DNA from: Escherichia coli
GTDB taxonomy: Bacteria > Pseudomonadota > Gammaproteobacteria > Enterobacterales > Enterobacteriaceae
Reading direction: 5' to 3' (one strand)
NCBI RefSeq assembly: GCF_030013205.1
Contig: NZ_CP122648.1
DNA: 64,000 bases
A program made the position numbers. This document shows, piece after piece, positions 12,001-18,000 of this stretch (position 1 is the stretch's first letter; every line of letters begins with the position of its first letter).

Positions 12001-15000
12001 AAATTCATGATGCAGTAAGAAAAGATACTGTGAGATTTAATTCTCCATCTAATGGAGTAACGGCTGTTTCAGGGTTTAAAGTGATTTCGGTTGTCCCTGT
12101 TCCATGAATGGTTATAGAAGGGGCTGGAAGCCCCTAATTATTACTTCTTAATATCGCCAGTGCATTGATATTCGATAGTCACAAGTGTTTGCATACAACC
12201 AGATGAAGAAGGTTGTGAACATTGAGAAGTGAATCCACCAAAAGGCTCGGCTCCTGAATATCCCCAAGCGGCACAACGCGCTTTGGCTGCATTCATGCCT
12301 TGTTGTGGATCTACAACAGGACTTTCAAACATACCGTAAGAATAACTCATCCTAACTGTGCCGTCTGATTTGCTTCCACCAGTTGGAACGAGTTGTTTTT
12401 TTGTTGCACATCCAGAAATAATCAATGTTGAAGCAAGTAACAGCATTAAACTTTTGCGCATGTAAATAATCCCAAGAGATAATGGTTATGTATTGATTTA
12501 AAGCGTTTTTAGATTAATGCATTAACTTAGCAAAATTAAGTCTTTTCTGATTGTTTGCAGAGTAAAAATGAGTTGCTTTCGAAATTATTTCGGATGTTTA
12601 TTGTATTACGGTTTTTCAAACCGTCTAACTATTGTCGCTATTGAATGGGCAATAATAGCAAGAGGATTCATTTCGTCATTGGAGGCAACAAAAAGTCGGT
12701 AACTGATAGCTACAACGAATGAAACAATAACGAGAAAGCGGATAGTGCTAAGATGTTTTGAAGATAAATGCATAACGCCCCCTAAATGAATGTGAGGGGG
12801 ATTAAATCATGCAAATTTGTTGTGTGCAATACTGGTAATTTATCCTAATAGTCTACTATTCACCTCAATCTACGTCAACCAATATTTGATGTAGATTTGA
12901 TTTTCTTTTAAAAACAATATGTTGCAATTTGTTGGGTTTTGGGGTTAGGTTGTTTTTTGGACGTTTCCATCAAGTGTAAAGATACGTTTAGCCTTCATAG
13001 TGAGTTCAGTTACTGTCTTTTTCTCTGAAATCGGCGCATACGTGATCATCGCTTAACGAGAAGATCAGCGCCGTCAGGTCCATGCAGCGACAATTCTGAA
13101 ATATCAGGAGGCATTACGCTTCCTGCTCTTTCTTGATACGTTGCACCGTCTGTGTGCTGACACTGAAATCTTTTGCTACGCTCCGAATTGATCCACCATT
13201 CGCGAGAGCGGCAACAATTCCCGCTCGATCAATTGCTTTTCCATTACCACGTTTTGCTATACGCCCAGCTGCCTTAGCTGCGGCGATCCCTTCACGTTGA
13301 CGCTCAAGCATCATTTCACGTTCCATTTGTGCCACTGCTGCAAGCACTGTGAGCATCATATTCCCTGCGGGAGAGTTCTTCCCTGTCTTAAAGTCTTCTT
13401 TATGGAAATGCACAGACACGCCGCGCTCTGTTAATTGCTCAACCGTTGCCAGAAGGTCGGCTGTATTACGGCAAAGGCGATCAATACTGTGAACATGCAA
13501 AACATCACCTTCCCGCACATAGTTCATCATTGCCTCAAACTGTGGGCGCTGGGTATTCTTGCCTGACGCTTTATCTTCAAAGACTTTATCAAGAGCTACT
13601 CCAGCTAATTGACGGTCTGTGTTTTGTTGCACAGTCGATACCCTAATGTATCCAATATTAGCCATTTTCTTTATTCCTTCTGTGTTGATTTGTGTGTAGT
13701 GATTATTGATCGTGTTGATTAGGTGTGTAAAGGACTTTTTTCACTACGAAATTCGAAGGTTTTTAGTGTGGTGATTTAGCCTGCTTTATCACTACACGTC
13801 TTGCATGAGAATCATGTAGTTACGTTTTGGTAAAATTAGCAAGCTATTAAATAGTGTGTTTATTTTGAAAAAATAATTTTTTGTTGCATTAAAGAAAACT
13901 TGTTCGACAAATAATAGATTGATTTTTAATCAATAATTTCTGATAGTGCTCTGTAAGCCGCATTACACAAGGCTTTGCGAAAGTGATGTAAAAGTGAAGA
14001 AAGTAAGAATTGCACTTTTAAGCTACTTTTCATTGAATTTTTAGTATGGAATTACACAGGGATTAATCATCAATTACATTGAATTTAAGCCTGTTTTAGA
14101 TGTTTAATTTTGGTAGCAAGAAACACTTTTAGAAGATCATTGCACAGATGTTATGTGATAAATGGATGTAACGATGGGTTACATTCAGCTATCTGAAATA
14201 CTCTCTGTAAGAAATTTGGTAGTAACGATTCGTTACATAGACTAATTATTGAATGTAACGATATTACACATCGGTAGTAACGATACGTTACATCGGCAGA
14301 TGATTGGTTGTAACGAAAGGTTACACAATAAGACTAACATCTATAATACTAATAATAAAACTAACTATTAAACTATATAATATAATTCTTTTTTATCTTT
14401 ATAAGAATAATTATAGGGATACCCGTTAGGGAGTCTAACGACTATCCCTTAATCTATTGGCATTCGCCAGAACCTTGCACAAGTTAGAGTGTTAGTCGTT
14501 AGACTGCTTGTCATAACACATAGTTTTTGTTTGTTGATGTTAGTTAGTAGATCTATGTTCGCTTTCCGCTCACAACGAATATGTAATCTACTATGTGCAA
14601 ATAGCCTACGGCTTGCGTAAGGCTAAATAGTCTTGCGCTGTGCGCAGAACGATAATTAACTAACTACCATCTAACGATCATCAATCATCTAAAATAAATT
14701 TCTTGTGCAATGTTCTTGCGAATGCAATTAGGGTAGCGTTACCCCTTTGGGGATGCTAACGCATAACTATAGATCAACCATCAAACAGACAAAAAAGAAA
14801 AATATGGTTTAAAGATGTTAGGTAGTAGATGAGTTTCTACCGCTTAAATCAAGCCGTAGGCGAGCTAAACGTATATAAGGTAGGGAAACACTTAGCGGTA
14901 ATAGATTAGCTCGTTATAGAGATTCTGAGGAGCTTTACAGGTATTTTATAAGGTGTCTGAAATTAGATTTTATCTACCATCACCTTTTCATATACCTAAC

Positions 15001-18000
15001 AAATACAAAATAAGCACCTTAAATAAGCCTCTGGCGAGCTAAACGGTCATTACATAAGGGAATGTATTGTTTTTATCAAAACCTCGTTAGAACGCGTTTT
15101 AGAGCGTTATTAGACAATAATGAAGAATAGCACTACACAGGAGAGCACGAATTGCTAAGACAAATTATAAATTGCTGAAATAGATCGGATTTTTTGCAAA
15201 ATGGTATTGACAAATGTCTCTTTCTGTGCAATAATAGGTATTAGAGGGACAGAAAACATTCTTATCCTCTAAGTAATTAAACCAATGCACCGCACTTTGA
15301 GCCGTCAGGCTGCAAGGTGTCTTTTTCTTTTAACCAAATAGAATAGGAGGTTAATTAATGAAATATTTCACTCCACAGGATGTAGTAGAAGCCTGGAAAC
15401 GTGGTGAGATCAATCGTTTTAAAGTAAGGATGAACAGGAACACAGCGCGACGCTGTGGTTATCCAGAGCGTGAAAAATGTTTTGACGATGCACTAAAAAT
15501 TATTGATGAACTGCGTAAGGCAGAAGTAGAGAAAGAATAATAACAGGAGAAGGAGAAAACTATGAGCGAAACTAAGAAACCAATTCCGCGCACTTACCTA
15601 CACGTTGACCCTGAAATCTTCAAGGTTTTATTTGCTGAAGCCAAGAAAAGGCAAATTATGGTCAGTGATTTGATGTTAGAAATCATTACTGAAGCAGCAG
15701 AGAACATCAAACAAAAAAAGGGTAAGTGATCCTCATTCACTTTAGTAGCGCATTAAGCGTGATTTATAAGGAGATAATTCTAATGTCTAAAATTAAATTG
15801 ATTCGTGAAAAATACCAGTATGTTGATAAACAAACAGGAGAAATTAAAGACAGAACTTTGAATATACCACACTACTTTTGTGAGATTGAATTCATCTACT
15901 CCTCAAATATTGAGGATGGAAAAGCGAAGTTTAGTGCAGAAATGCAAAAATTATATTGCTATGTTTCAGATTGGGAGAAATCAGGGGGGATATGTTTTGA
16001 AACACAAACGAAGTTAAGTAAAGTTTGTGGCTGTAGCCGTAAGACAGTTAATGAATTGATTGGTCTTATGATTAAAATCGGTCTTTTAGAAGAGGTCGGA
16101 GAACGAATCCCAAAACGTCCTTTAAAATTACGTGCGCTACTTCTCACAGATGCACATATTACTCCCCCTGGAGAATCATCACTACCTGATCCTTCTGAGA
16201 AAGAAGACGAATCTAATGAAATATTGAATGTTTCCGAAATCATCCTTGAAGAAGAAACACAAGAGCCAGAGTTCCCTGAGCGGCCCGAAATTTTTACTTG
16301 GCTTCTTTCCCTTGATAAGAAGAAACCACCGCACGAAGAAACAGAAGATTTTGTAAAACGTGCATTAGATTCAAAGAATATCTATCTTGAGAAACAGGCT
16401 TTTCACGATCTGATAATATCTCTAAGAGAAAAAAGTGAAATATACGATTCAATACCATTCTAAGGAGAATAAATGACTTATAACATCACTATAGGAAACA
16501 AAACTATTGAAATAACTGAAAGCGGATACAACATTTTAAAAGCTATTTTGGAAATAGAGTTCTCACCGCCGACAGTGGTTAGCTTTTGTAGTTTAGGCGG
16601 CTACAGCGCACAACACGTGAATCATTGGTTAAACCATTTTACATCGTTCGGTGTGCTGGATTATGAAGGGATTAACAGCACTACATTTCGTCTTTTGAAA
16701 TTAAACAAAGATTTTGAATTGTTTATCACAAACAATCAATAACAACAGATCGGGCAATACATATGGCAAATGCATTTATGGCGATATTCATTGTAACAAT
16801 GGTATCAAGTTTTTATAATCCACATAAAAAGAGGGAAAATGGGAAGAAAGAAAAAGAACAACTTAAAACGTATTGAAAAAAACAGTAACTTCAATTCAAC
16901 AAGACAACGTCCACCGACACACACCAATAACGAAATTCCAGGGGAAGAGATAATATTTATTCTTGAAACAGAATCCCCTGAATTAAGCGATGAAGAATTA
17001 GAAATAATCCAGTCAATGCCAGGCGTTTACTTTCGCCCAAGAACAAGAAAACAAACTATCATTTCTGATGGCACTCTGAAACGTTGGCAGCTTTTAGGGT
17101 TTAGCTCCTATCATCATTTTTTGGGATTTAACGCTTTCAATAATTGTGTAGGTGGTGCATCGGAAGTCGATCTGATGGCTCATTTAGAAGATACATTAGC
17201 TTCTAACAAACGTTCTAACTAATAAAATGATGGGAGTATGTATAAGCGCCCAATGAAAATAATCGAAAAAGGAAAAATAATGATTAACTATCAACTATTA
17301 GAAACAACATTTTTTAAAGAAGCAAAACAACTTGCAGAAGTGTTTATTTCACTGGCTGAACGAGCAAAAGAAGAAAATGATTTTGCCTTGCTTGATGATG
17401 TGCTGGATGACATTGCAACCTATCGTATACCGCTACAGATTGCACTAAACAAGGCTAAACAGATTCAGCAAGAGATGGAATCAGCAGATCAAGGAGAGAT
17501 TGCACAATGACAGACAACATTCTGGAAGTTATGGACACTCTTTCGGATCGGATGATCGCCCTACAGACACGTATCAATCAAGCCTATTCAGATTTATGCG
17601 ATTACACGCTCTCTCAATGCGTTAGTAGCTTAATGAAGGTGAATGTAAGCCTTGACGATTTCATCTCTCTGGTGAGCGATTTAGAGCTATCTAAGGACGA
17701 TGTCAGGCTGTGTACTCAAACCATCACAGACACCGCCAGCACGTTAAAGGCTGCAAGTGAAGAGATTCAGCAATTAGTAGATGATTTAGCAAAAAGTGCT
17801 ATTTTCTCCAAATGATAATGAAAATCATTTGCATTTATAACGATTTCATTATATAATGATATTAGGGGTAGATAAAAAGGTTTTGACTGGTGTTAATCCT
17901 TCTACTGTCATAAATCCCTGCATATGGAAGGTGATAGCCTCAAGGGTTGAGTGGCATTAACCTCTAACAAATATTACCTTCCATCTCTCAAGAAGTTTTA

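What the first reader, a model, noticed from the sequence alone, without database searches (positions are those of the whole stretch)
14604..15045. Short direct and inverted repeats near the invertase: possible invertible switch or duplicated promoter/sRNA
GGCGAGCTAAACG is repeated directly at about 14859 and 15033, with similar flanks (AAGCC..., ATAAGG). An 11-bp inverted copy, GCCTACGGCTT, lies at 14604-14614 opposite AAGCCGTAGGC at 14851-14861. Inverted repeats flanking about 240 bp beside a Hin/Gin-family invertase raise the possibility of a phase-variable segment. The repeats are shorter than classical 26-bp hix/gix sites, so this is tentative.
Basis: inference. Interest (0 to 1): 0.4.

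Follow-up and report, generated by a model that had tools for sequence, protein, structure and literature searches.

The report
Duplicated promoter-upstream element, not a switch
The short repeats are real, but they are not flip sites for the neighbouring recombinase: they belong to two copies of a conserved control element upstream of the early promoter of a widespread, uncharacterised E. coli satellite-like island, and part of that element also occurs in T5-like and other large virulent phages.

Summary
Observation confirmed. GGCGAGCTAAACG occurs at 14859 and 15033. The inverted pair is 12 bp (14604-14615 / 14850-14861).

The invertible-switch reading is rejected. No inverted allele was found in 545 E. 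coli genomes that match the test query, nor in 17 fetched relatives. The repeats persist where the serine recombinase is replaced or absent. That recombinase has its own dyad motifs next to its gene.

The repeats lie in a 1.7-kb ORF-free control region of a roughly 13-kb integrative island, present in 743 of 5426 complete E. coli genomes. The region sits between a lambda-ori-like origin and a near-consensus early promoter (15207-15235).

The 13-mer is the core of two paralogous ~90-nt units (14843-14935, 15017-15108). Recombination between them has deleted the 174-bp interval at least three times in relatives.

The 3' half of unit B (three tandem GCGTTTTAGA-like decamers, or a hairpin) is shared with noncoding DNA of T5-like phages (T5 "inverted repeat B") and of Vequintavirinae and Stephanstirmvirinae, upstream of promoter-like sites there. 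A second lineage shows the same relation with a different 9-mer.

Most likely this is a duplicated cis-regulatory module. The mechanism is unproven.

The parts
14604..14615 (+). It lies in the 5' arm and loop of a small hairpin, 20 nt upstream of the invariant GCGCTGTGCGC.
   Evidence: exact reverse complement of 14850-14861, and invariant in all type-A loci. One search gives the context.
14843..14935 (+). Unit A, the first paralogous copy. It contains CTTAAATC, AAGCCGTAGGC (14851-14861), the core GGCGAGCTAAACG (14859-14871) and a 3' arm TTAGCTCGTT (14906-14915). It ends with a degenerate decamer, CTCGTTATAGAG (14910-14921).
   Evidence: D4; helix 14859-14868:14906-14915; weak covariance-model hit, 13.6 bits; alignment of unit A with unit B.
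15017..15108 (+). Unit B, the second paralogous copy and the copy conserved in every relative. It contains CTTAAATA, AAGCCTCTGGC, the core GGCGAGCTAAACG (15033-15045), the helix 15030-15038:15083-15091, and a small hairpin at 15092-15107.
   Evidence: 98% of cells paired in 23 distinct sequences, with one-sided changes only; covariance-model hits of 100-118 bits in all loci.
14872..15045 (+). The 174-bp interval (one repeat period) that is absent in one-copy relatives. It is lost by recombination between units A and B.
   Evidence: three junction classes (L007/L017/L025/L026; L009/L038/L041; L022/L024).
15070..15115 (+). Phage-shared block. It contains three tandem decamers, TCGTTAGAAC | GCGTTTTAGA | GCGTTATTAGA (15084-15114). 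An alternative reading is the hairpin UUAGAACGC / GCGUUUUAG, which is complete in relatives that lack the extra A.
   Evidence: (82 phage records; KPN4 E 2e-4). It corresponds to T5's annotated inverted repeats B and B'.
15207..15235 (+). Early promoter TTGACA-17-TGcAATAAT of the p60-p55-p226 operon.
   Evidence: 11 of 12 matches, extended -10. TTGACA is conserved in all relatives. The -35 context GTGAAAAGGTATTGACA of L013 is identical to a Seunavirus site.
15243..15331 (+). Leader of the early operon. It has hairpin 15243-15270, then a terminator-like stem 15293-15303:15308-15319 with a T-run to 15331, just before the p60 ribosome-binding site.
   Evidence: fold; stem conserved, with a paired one-nucleotide indel, GAGCC/GGCTG versus GAAGCC/GGCTTG.
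14625..14664 (+). A 40-nt island of conservation with the invariant GCGCTGTGCGC at 14635-14645. It is preceded by lineage-specific hairpins.
   Evidence: about 82% identity where the flanks do not align; invariant in all loci.
14157..14415 (.). Origin-like region: five dyad-symmetric GTAACG-N3-5-CGTTAC sites (14157-14325) followed by an 85-bp AT-rich stretch (14330-14415).
   Evidence: D1, D2; the repeat motif co-varies with the type of the O-like protein p226. L013 has five 23-bp-spaced ACAGAATTCTGT sites; p226 hits replication-initiator O-like PHROGs.
14454..14731 (.). Large imperfect inverted repeat (arms 14454-14483 and 14702-14731) enclosing 14604-14615.
   Evidence: I1. (z -6.2 and -7.0 on the two strands); the left arm is invariant, the right arm exists in two versions (87% and 72% complementary), and there is no compensation.
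13114..13665 (-). Small serine recombinase (183 aa), part of a swappable cassette.
   Evidence: The cassette boundary lies at about 13870-13920.
13694..13797 (.). Candidate binding or crossover sites of that recombinase: GTGTAGTGATTA at 13694 (+), 13766 (+) and 13786 (-).
   Evidence: The alternative recombinase cassette in L013 has a different motif.

Best explanation
The repeats are the island-specific 5' halves of two paralogous copies (unit A 14843-14935, unit B 15017-15108) of a composite cis-regulatory element. The element sits between the island's replication origin and its strong early promoter.

The 3' half of the element is an array of three GCGTTTTAGA-like decamers at a 10-bp period, which can also fold as a short hairpin. 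This half is a phage-type promoter-upstream element. The same block lies in the untranslated repeat regions next to the pre-early genes of T5-like phages, and about 35-125 nt upstream of promoter-like sites in Vequintavirinae and Stephanstirmvirinae phages.

The most likely working model is that a host factor, or a factor from an infecting phage, reads the decamer array to control the early operon p60-p55-p226 (the last an O-like initiator) and hence island replication. The GGCGAG core can pair with the first decamer, CTCGTT. The distal complement at 14604-14615 can pair with the sequence just 5' of the core, which would give alternative structures if the plus strand is ever single-stranded or transcribed.

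The direct repeat also acts as a substrate for homologous recombination, which removes one unit in many natural variants.

Shown: the conservation, the paralogy, the sharing with phages, the absence of inversion, and the independence from the recombinase. Inferred: the regulatory role and the factor binding.
For: Location and context.

The family is widespread and unannotated: (743 of 5426 genomes, no features annotated).

Unit B is invariant across otherwise mosaic relatives.

Paralogy of units A and B.

Hairpin GGCGAG/CTCGTT in both units, with G.U pairs that exist only on the plus strand. In unit B, 98% of cells are paired and all 15 variant cells that change one side keep a pair.

One-copy derivatives with three junction classes.

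Phage sharing: 82 records; E 2e-4; T5 inverted repeats B and B' and a third copy; the motif upstream of TTTGACA and GTGAAAAGGTATTGACA sites.

Link between the island and such phages: 626 bp at 96% identity with phage inny, covering p55 and the 5' part of p226; p225 is 53% identical to Phapecoctavirus proteins.

Distal complement in two lineages with different sequences.
Against: No experiment or expression data supports a regulatory role.

No conserved plus-strand promoter upstream of the units was found in L013 or L005, so a transcript through the units is unproven.

Covariation is one-sided only, and the shuffle control is uninformative.

Unit A's helix has a C.A mismatch in six loci.

Seven loci lack the third decamer (L004-type). 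Five loci lack any distal complement (L009, L022, L024, L041; L038 is truncated) yet look intact, so neither feature is indispensable.

The factor that would bind the decamers is unknown. There is no DnaA-box enrichment. Unit B lies 100 nt from the -35 hexamer, which is far for a simple operator.
Confidence: 0.5

Rival explanations
1. RNA switch. A plus-strand transcript through the region folds into alternative pairings in the style of an attenuator. The segments are: 1, the distal complement (14604-14615, or the hairpin loop GCCAGAGGC in the other lineage); 2, the unit 5' arm (GCC-NNN-GGCGAG); 3, the first decamer CTCGTTAGAACGC; 4, GCGTTTTAG. The state 1:2 plus 3:4 alternates with the state 2:3, and this sets read-through into the early operon.
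For: All three pairings exist in sequence. G.U pairs make helix 2:3 specific to the plus strand. The 1:2 complementarity recurs with different sequence in a second lineage, where it is presented in a hairpin loop. The island has no divergent repressor gene, and a conserved terminator lies in the early leader. This recalls P4, whose immunity is RNA-based (my knowledge).
Against: There is no conserved upstream plus-strand promoter. The 3:4 hairpin is not followed by a U-run. Segments 1 and 2 are 240-440 nt apart. Natural variants lack segment 1 or segment 4. There is no Rfam match. No double compensatory change was seen. The short leader RNA shows no significant complementarity to the region.
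Confidence: 0.15
2. Origin-accessory hairpins. The plus strand to the right of the origin is the lagging-strand template for a rightward fork. Units A and B would then be single-strand initiation (primosome or primase) signals, or other replication-associated hairpins.
For: An iteron plus AT-rich origin lies 450-700 bp to the left. The hairpins are specific to the plus strand. The region 14400-14780 is extremely palindromic on both strands. That ssi signals lie beside plasmid origins is established knowledge.
Against: The same 3' block sits next to promoters, not origins, in three phage families. One unit is dispensable. There is no similarity to known ssi signals that I could test.
Confidence: 0.1
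3. No present function of the repeat as such. The two copies and the inverted 12-mer would be scars of modular recombination in a highly mosaic region. They would be kept only because they flank functional pieces.
For: The region is a patchwork of swapped modules. Crossovers fall inside the units. One copy suffices in 9 loci. The 11-bp inverted repeat is within chance expectation for a 64-kb window. The large inverted repeat is not maintained by compensation.
Against: Unit B is nearly invariant across lineages whose flanks cannot be aligned. Its 3' block is conserved across three phage families. The distal complement recurs independently (15 in 20000).
Confidence: 0.15
4. Invertible (phase-variable) segment of about 235 bp between the 11-12-bp inverted repeats, flipped by the adjacent serine recombinase.
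For: A small serine recombinase gene lies 940 bp away. The repeats are exact and conserved. Fim-type switches use 9-bp repeats (my knowledge).
Against: No inverted alleles were found in 545 matching genomes or in 17 relatives. The repeats are retained with other recombinases or with none. The recombinase has its own dyad sites and is as similar to resolvases as to Gin. The 12-mer has no hix/gix-like dyad. Five natural loci have lost one arm.
Confidence: 0.02

Closest known systems
Untranslated repeat regions of the terminal repeat of phage T5 and its relatives (inverted repeats B and B' of Wang et al.; repeat regions 1-3 of Davison, bioRxiv 10.1101/866236)
   Same: The block CTCGTTAGAA-GCGTTTTAG is shared, with 19 of 20 bases matching T5 6196-6215 and 89% identity over 45 nt with KPN4. 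Both sit in a long untranslated stretch crowded with direct repeats, inverted repeats and palindromes next to strong early promoters. In both cases the function is unknown.
   Different: T5's copies are inverted relative to each other and lie in a virulent phage's terminal repeat. Here two copies are direct, lie in an integrated island, and carry an extra island-specific 5' half (the GGCGAGCTAAAC core) that is absent from the phages. There are no paired DnaA boxes here.
Promoter-early stem-loop (PeSL) cassettes of T4-type phages (Arbiol et al. 2010; from memory, not read here)
   Same: Both are short repeated modules that combine a stem-loop with an early promoter, and both mark the boundaries of gene shuffling and serve as recombination substrates. 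Here the units are crossover points and sit upstream of an early promoter.
   Different: The sequences are different and the phage groups are different. The element here lies 100 nt from the promoter. Membership cannot be claimed.
Hin/Gin/Cin DNA inversion systems
   Same: A small serine recombinase gene is nearby, and there are inverted repeats.
   Different: There are no 26-bp dyad crossover sites, no inverted alleles, and no linkage between the repeats and the recombinase.
fimS switch (FimB/FimE, 9-bp inverted repeats flanking 314 bp)
   Same: Short (9-12 bp) inverted repeats flank a few hundred bp.
   Different: Only one orientation is seen in hundreds of genomes. No tyrosine recombinase is linked, except a swapped cassette in L010. 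There is no promoter inside the segment.
ori-lambda (four dyad-symmetric iterons bound by O, an AT-rich region, then a palindrome)
   Same: The neighbouring 14157-14460 stretch has five dyad-symmetric repeats that co-vary with an O-like protein, then an AT-rich stretch, then a hairpin.
   Different: The origin lies outside the initiator gene and 1.4 kb upstream of it. The finding's repeats are beside this origin, not part of it.
P4 immunity (CI RNA seqB pairing with the direct repeats seqA and seqC) and trp-type attenuators (from memory)
   Same: Direct repeats plus one complementary copy lie in the untranslated region of an early operon. There is no protein repressor gene. A terminator lies in the leader.
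   Different: The order of elements differs: the complement comes first. Only one of the two direct copies is complementary. The units lie upstream of the early promoter. There is no Rfam C4/CI match.

Membership tests
Serine-invertase switch (Hin/Gin/Cin) | Both orientations of the segment occur in natural populations and genomes | tested here: not met
   no inverted alleles among 545 and 365 matching E. coli genomes or among 17 fetched relatives.
Serine-invertase switch (Hin/Gin/Cin) | Crossover sites are about 26-bp imperfect dyads that match the recombinase's binding motif | tested here: not met
   The repeat is a 12-mer without a hix/gix-like dyad. The only clustered dyad motif, GTGTAGTGATTA, lies at 13694-13797.
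Serine-invertase switch (Hin/Gin/Cin) | The repeats are genetically linked to the recombinase gene | tested here: not met
   the repeats are present with a different serine recombinase, with a tyrosine recombinase, or with none.
Serine-invertase switch (Hin/Gin/Cin) | The recombinase belongs to the invertase clade and has a Fis-dependent enhancer | tested here: inconclusive
   E 1e-27 to Tn3/gamma-delta resolvases against 5e-25 to Gin. The enhancer was not testable.
fim-type tyrosine-recombinase switch | A dedicated tyrosine recombinase is adjacent, and a promoter lies inside the invertible segment | tested here: not met
   No tyrosine recombinase is adjacent in the window. No promoter-like site lies in 14615-14850. 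Only one orientation is seen.
T5-type inverted repeat B element (phage promoter-region repeat) | Sequence block CGTYAGAA-N-GCGTTTTAG-R in untranslated DNA near early or pre-early promoters | tested here: met
   19 of 20 bases match T5 IRB', and 41 of 46 match KPN4. The promoter lies 100 nt downstream.
T5-type inverted repeat B element (phage promoter-region repeat) | Location in the terminal repeat of a Demerecviridae genome, with copies inverted | tested here: not met
   Here the copies are direct and lie in a chromosomal island.
Known RNA families (Rfam 15, including C4/CI antisense RNAs) | A covariance-model match at or near the gathering score | tested here: not met
   no hit at the gathering threshold in the window. 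Only chance snoRNA and lncRNA hits with E above 2 were found in 13500-15500.
Structured RNA (generic) | Compensatory double changes in helices beyond the controls | tested here: inconclusive
   98% of cells paired and three pairs with one-sided changes, but no double changes, and the shuffle control is not exceeded.
Iteron-type origin (ori-lambda-like); applies to the neighbouring 14157-14415, not to the finding itself | Repeats co-vary with the initiator and are followed by an AT-rich region | tested here: met
   (four initiator types, four motifs).

The most novel reading that the evidence does not exclude
The units, their distal complement and the phage-shared decamer/hairpin block form a sensor. 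Through it, a repressor-less satellite island detects infection by large virulent phages (Stephanstirmvirinae, Vequintavirinae or T5-like) and switches on its own replication operon. The sensor would work either by binding a factor of the infecting phage or by an attenuator-like RNA rearrangement (1:2/3:4 versus 2:3). This would also assign a function to the long-enigmatic inverted repeat B elements of the T5 terminal repeat.
Probability: 0.12. Interest if true: 0.7.

Novelty: new variant of a known kind. Interest (0 to 1): 0.42.

Why it matters
The invertible-switch idea can be dropped. What remains is an unannotated, strongly conserved control region of an island carried by about one in seven complete E. 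coli genomes.

The region holds a likely origin, a near-consensus early promoter with a leader terminator, and a duplicated element. The 3' half of that element is shared with the untranslated repeat regions of T5-like phages and with promoter regions of rV5-like and phAPEC8-like phages.

The island has also exchanged 626 bp (96% identity) with a Justusliebigvirus phage. This points to a possible satellite or defence relationship with virulent phages that are used in phage therapy.

If the shared block is a regulatory site, the island offers a simple genetic handle: natural one-copy and two-copy variants, and variants lacking the third decamer. That handle could be used on an element whose role in T5 has been unknown for decades.

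Tried and rejected
Rfam at the gathering threshold and at permissive thresholds found nothing. There are no tRNA or tmRNA genes.

A megablast or blastn search of the whole 1.7-kb region against phages gave only one short hit at first. The phage link appeared only with a short query and a lax E-value.

Literature searches for the island, for the sequences themselves and for satellites of Stephanstirmvirinae found nothing relevant.

Inversion alleles: none.

The long-range helix cannot be scored by nested folding, because it is a pseudoknot relative to the big inverted repeat; the pair probability is 0.

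Complementarity between the short early-leader RNA and the upstream region is within the shuffle range.

DnaA boxes are not enriched and no perfect box occurs in the region.

CTTAAAT boxes as Cox-like sites: the count is too low to say.

Pfam and NCBIfam on p55, p60 and p89 gave nothing. That p55 is a ribbon-helix-helix protein is only my reading of its sequence.

The covariance-model hit to a third, minus-strand copy left of the recombinase in other lineages looked like compensatory change. By sequence homology, however, the 3' partner has shifted, so I do not count it as covariation.

The sigma-54 and sigma-E readings of the phage flank were discarded on spacing.

Full report
**1. Observation**

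The window sequence and the repeat finder confirm GGCGAGCTAAACG at 14859-14871 and 15033-15045, a spacing of 174 bp, with similar flanks. They also confirm GCCTACGGCTT at 14604-14614 opposite AAGCCGTAGGC at 14851-14861. The complementarity is in fact 12 bp (14604-14615 / 14850-14861). The 12-mer core occurs only twice in 64 kb.

By shuffling, an exact 11-bp inverted pair within 300 bp is expected about 8 times per window, and a 13-bp direct pair about once. Statistics on this one sequence therefore do not carry the inverted repeat. Conservation does (section 4).

**2. Where it lies**

The window is E. coli chromosome, 100% identical over 13000-16000 to ETEC1748 and other porcine strains.

The finding sits in a 1.7-kb ORF-free stretch (13666-15357) of an integrative island. 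The island's genes are as follows.
- Small serine recombinase (13114-13665, minus strand).
- p60 (15358), p55 (15562), and p226 (15783-16463), which gives a weak HTH_36 hit and O-like initiator PHROG hits.
- Several small genes, then a second 1-kb non-coding stretch.
- A small gene followed by a gpE-like capsid gene (19408-20436).
- A tape-measure-like gene, an IS, and a Dit-like gene.
- A tyrosine integrase (24822-26042, minus strand).

A P4-like element lies in tandem to the left, at tRNA-Gly.

The non-coding stretch matches 743 of 5426 complete E. coli genomes and carries no annotation anywhere. It also occurs on one plasmid.

**3. The switch hypothesis fails**

I built two chimeric queries: one with 14615-14850 inverted, and one with the segment between the better 30-nt inverted repeat (14454-14483 / 14702-14731) inverted.
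- The first query matches 545 E. coli genomes. The best coverage is 58%, which is the flanks alone, and none reaches 80%.
- The second query matches 365 genomes. The best coverage is 62%, and none reaches 80%.
- Seventeen fetched relatives give only plus-strand HSPs.

The recombinase is a swappable cassette whose right boundary lies at about 13870-13920.
- Relatives carry a 179-aa serine recombinase at about 65% DNA identity (L011, L013, L015, L018).
- One carries a small tyrosine recombinase (L010).
- Others carry none (L009, L014, L016, L017).
- All keep the repeats.

The recombinase scores about equally with Tn3/gamma-delta resolvases and with Gin. Three copies of GTGTAGTGATTA, two direct and one inverted, cluster at 13694-13797 just upstream of its gene. 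The alternative cassette has a different motif in the same place. I infer that each recombinase acts on its own adjacent sites, in the manner of a res site. This inference was not tested.

**4. What the repeats are**

Alignment of relatives shows a mosaic of swapped modules. I examined 41 loci: the window, 16 E. coli relatives and the IMG/VR contigs, excluding two chance hits. They fall into three architectures.
- Fifteen have two units, as in the window.
- Nine have one unit behind the same upstream domain (type A).
- Seventeen have one unit behind a different upstream domain (type B).

The one-copy type-A loci lack exactly the 174-bp period. They have three different junctions inside the unit, so at least three independent recombination events occurred between the copies.

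The units are about 90 nt long (14843-14935 and 15017-15108). On the plus strand each folds with GGCGAG pairing to CTCGTT about 45 nt downstream. The helices are 14859-14868:14906-14915 and 15030-15038:15083-15091. Each helix contains two G.U pairs, which would be A.C mismatches on the other strand.

In 23 distinct unit-B sequences, 98% of cells in the 9-bp helix pair. Fifteen cells change one side and stay paired (G.U to G-C or A-U, and G-C to G.U). Four cells are broken. There are no double changes, and the shuffle control is not exceeded. The hairpin is therefore compatible with the data but not proven.

- Every locus with a GTA-type unit has it 234-353 nt upstream.
- Type-B loci instead have GCCAGAGGC 424-446 nt upstream of their GCCTCTGGC unit. 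It sits in the loop of a TTTCGGTG/CACCGAAA hairpin.
- That 9-mer arises in 15 of 20000 shuffles of the upstream kilobase. This serves as an independent test of the relation.
- Recombinants L009, L022, L024 and L041 have lost the partner, so it is not indispensable.

**5. Neighbours in the region**

The five GTAACG-N-CGTTAC dyads (14157-14325), followed by an 85-bp AT-rich stretch, look like an ori-lambda-type origin. Across loci the repeated motif tracks the N-terminal type of p226: K with ATGTAACG, E with CAGAATTC (five copies at 23-bp spacing in L013), Q with GTAGGTCA, and N with GGAAATGA.

The stretch 14400-14780 is extremely palindromic on both strands (z -6.2 and -7.0). However, the big inverted repeat is not kept by compensation: the left arm is invariant, and the right arm is 87% or 72% complementary.

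GCGCTGTGCGC (14635-14645) is invariant in all loci and sits behind lineage-specific hairpins. I could not explain it.

The early promoter at 15207-15235 matches 11 of 12 consensus positions and has an extended -10. Its leader carries a conserved terminator-like stem with a paired indel.

No conserved plus-strand promoter upstream of the units was found in two other lineages. This weakens any model that needs a transcript through the units.

**6. The phage connection**

A short, permissive search with 14990-15135 hits 82 phage records. The shared block is window 15070-15115.
- In T5-like phages it lies in the long untranslated region beside A1 and A2 (KPN4 E 2e-4; SE24).
- In T5 itself it is the annotated inverted repeat B' (19 of 20 bases) and inverted repeat B, plus a third copy near 9265. 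Davison (bioRxiv 10.1101/866236) describes these repeat regions as highly conserved and of unknown function.
- In a Seunavirus and a Stephanstirmvirinae phage the block lies about 35 nt upstream of TTTGACA promoter-like sites.
- In the Seunavirus it lies about 125 nt upstream of GTGAAAAGGTATTGACA. That 17-mer is identical to the -35 context of the island promoter in L013.

The block reads as three tandem decamers with consensus GCGTTTTAGA, or alternatively as a hairpin.

It is the island-specific half, and it can pair with the first decamer.

The island is tied to such phages in other ways.
- 626 bp at 96% identity (p55 plus the 5' part of p226) are shared with phage inny, a Justusliebigvirus.
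- The Dit-like protein is 53% identical to Phapecoctavirus proteins.
- The capsid protein is about 25% identical to theirs.

**7. Interpretation**

The best-supported statement is that the finding is a duplicated cis-regulatory module of the island's early-promoter/origin region. Its 3' half is a phage-type promoter-upstream element. It is not a set of recombination sites.

How it works is inferred. My preferred guess is that a host or phage factor binds the decamer array and controls the early operon.

Three rivals remain open: an attenuator-like RNA rearrangement using the three complementarities (1:2, 2:3, 3:4), origin-accessory hairpins on single-stranded DNA, and mere recombination scars.

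On novelty, the element is not in Rfam and I found no description of it or of the island. It is a new variant of a known kind of thing, namely repeated promoter-region modules of phages and satellites.

Noticed in passing
window 15550-16175; L044 (phage inny MN850601) 4769-5393: 626 bp at 96% identity are shared between the island and a virulent Justusliebigvirus phage. The shared stretch covers p55 (100% identical over 53 aa) and the first 140 aa of p226 (87% identical). In the phage, the p226 homologue continues into a different 367-aa protein. This points to recent exchange, and therefore co-residence, of island and phage.
   Followed up: partly
window about 12500-26300 (recombinase 13114, integrase 24822-26042): The island looks like an undescribed phage satellite or defence island. 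It has a tyrosine integrase, an O-like initiator with its own origin, a gpE-like capsid gene, and tape-measure-like and Dit-like genes related to phAPEC8-like myoviruses. It has no terminase, portal or repressor gene. It occurs in 743 of 5426 complete E. coli genomes and on one IncF plasmid. I found no paper on it.
   Followed up: partly
window 15243-15331: A strong early promoter is followed within 90 nt by a hairpin and a conserved terminator-like stem with a T-run, just before the first gene's ribosome-binding site. Relatives show a paired one-nucleotide indel in the stem. This could be an abundant short RNA or an attenuator.
   Followed up: partly
window 14635-14645 (context 14625-14664): GCGCTGTGCGC is invariant in all 39 loci, although its flanks belong to unalignable modules. 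In each lineage a different hairpin ends 6-8 nt before it. It resembles an inverted repeat followed by a nick-site layout (oriT or rolling-circle style), but no relaxase or HUH gene is present. Unexplained.
   Followed up: partly
window 13694-13797: Three copies of GTGTAGTGATTA, two direct and one inverted, with one pair forming a 32-bp dyad at 13766-13797, lie directly upstream of the serine recombinase gene. They are a candidate res-like site. The alternative recombinase cassette in L013 (1217-1341) has a different motif.
   Followed up: partly
window 14157-14415: Five dyad-symmetric repeats followed by an AT-rich stretch form an ori-lambda-like origin. The repeat sequence changes together with the type of the p226 initiator across relatives.
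   Followed up: yes
window 24749-24760 (minus strand): The 12-mer CTCGTTATAGAG of unit A recurs once more in the window, on the minus strand. It lies just after the terminator hairpin of the integrase gene and is followed by CGTTT, so it resembles the decamer block. About 0.17 matches are expected by chance.
   Followed up: no
L011/L013/L015/L018 about 180-325 and L014/L016 478-567 (minus strand): A diverged third copy of the unit lies on the opposite strand at the far left of the island in other lineages (covariance-model hits of 16-25 bits). It keeps AAGC...TAAAC, CGTTAGAATGCG and GCGTTTTAGAG. The window has no clear counterpart.
   Followed up: partly
window 22677-24029: An IS3-family element with two overlapping ORFs (IS2-like by my recollection) is inserted between the tape-measure-like and Dit-like genes. 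It is flanked by CTTAAATAA at 22668 and 24030. It is absent from the otherwise identical ETEC1748 locus.
   Followed up: no
window 17816-18807: A second 1-kb ORF-free stretch lies just before the head genes. It was not analysed, and it could hold a packaging site.
   Followed up: no
window 1-11000 (from the L002 annotation): A separate P4-like element lies in tandem at tRNA-Gly. It has an integrase, a primase, an Icd-like gene, an AntA/AntB antirepressor gene and a ProQ/FinO-like gene. Despite the icd/ant layout, no Rfam C4 antisense RNA hit was found.
   Followed up: no
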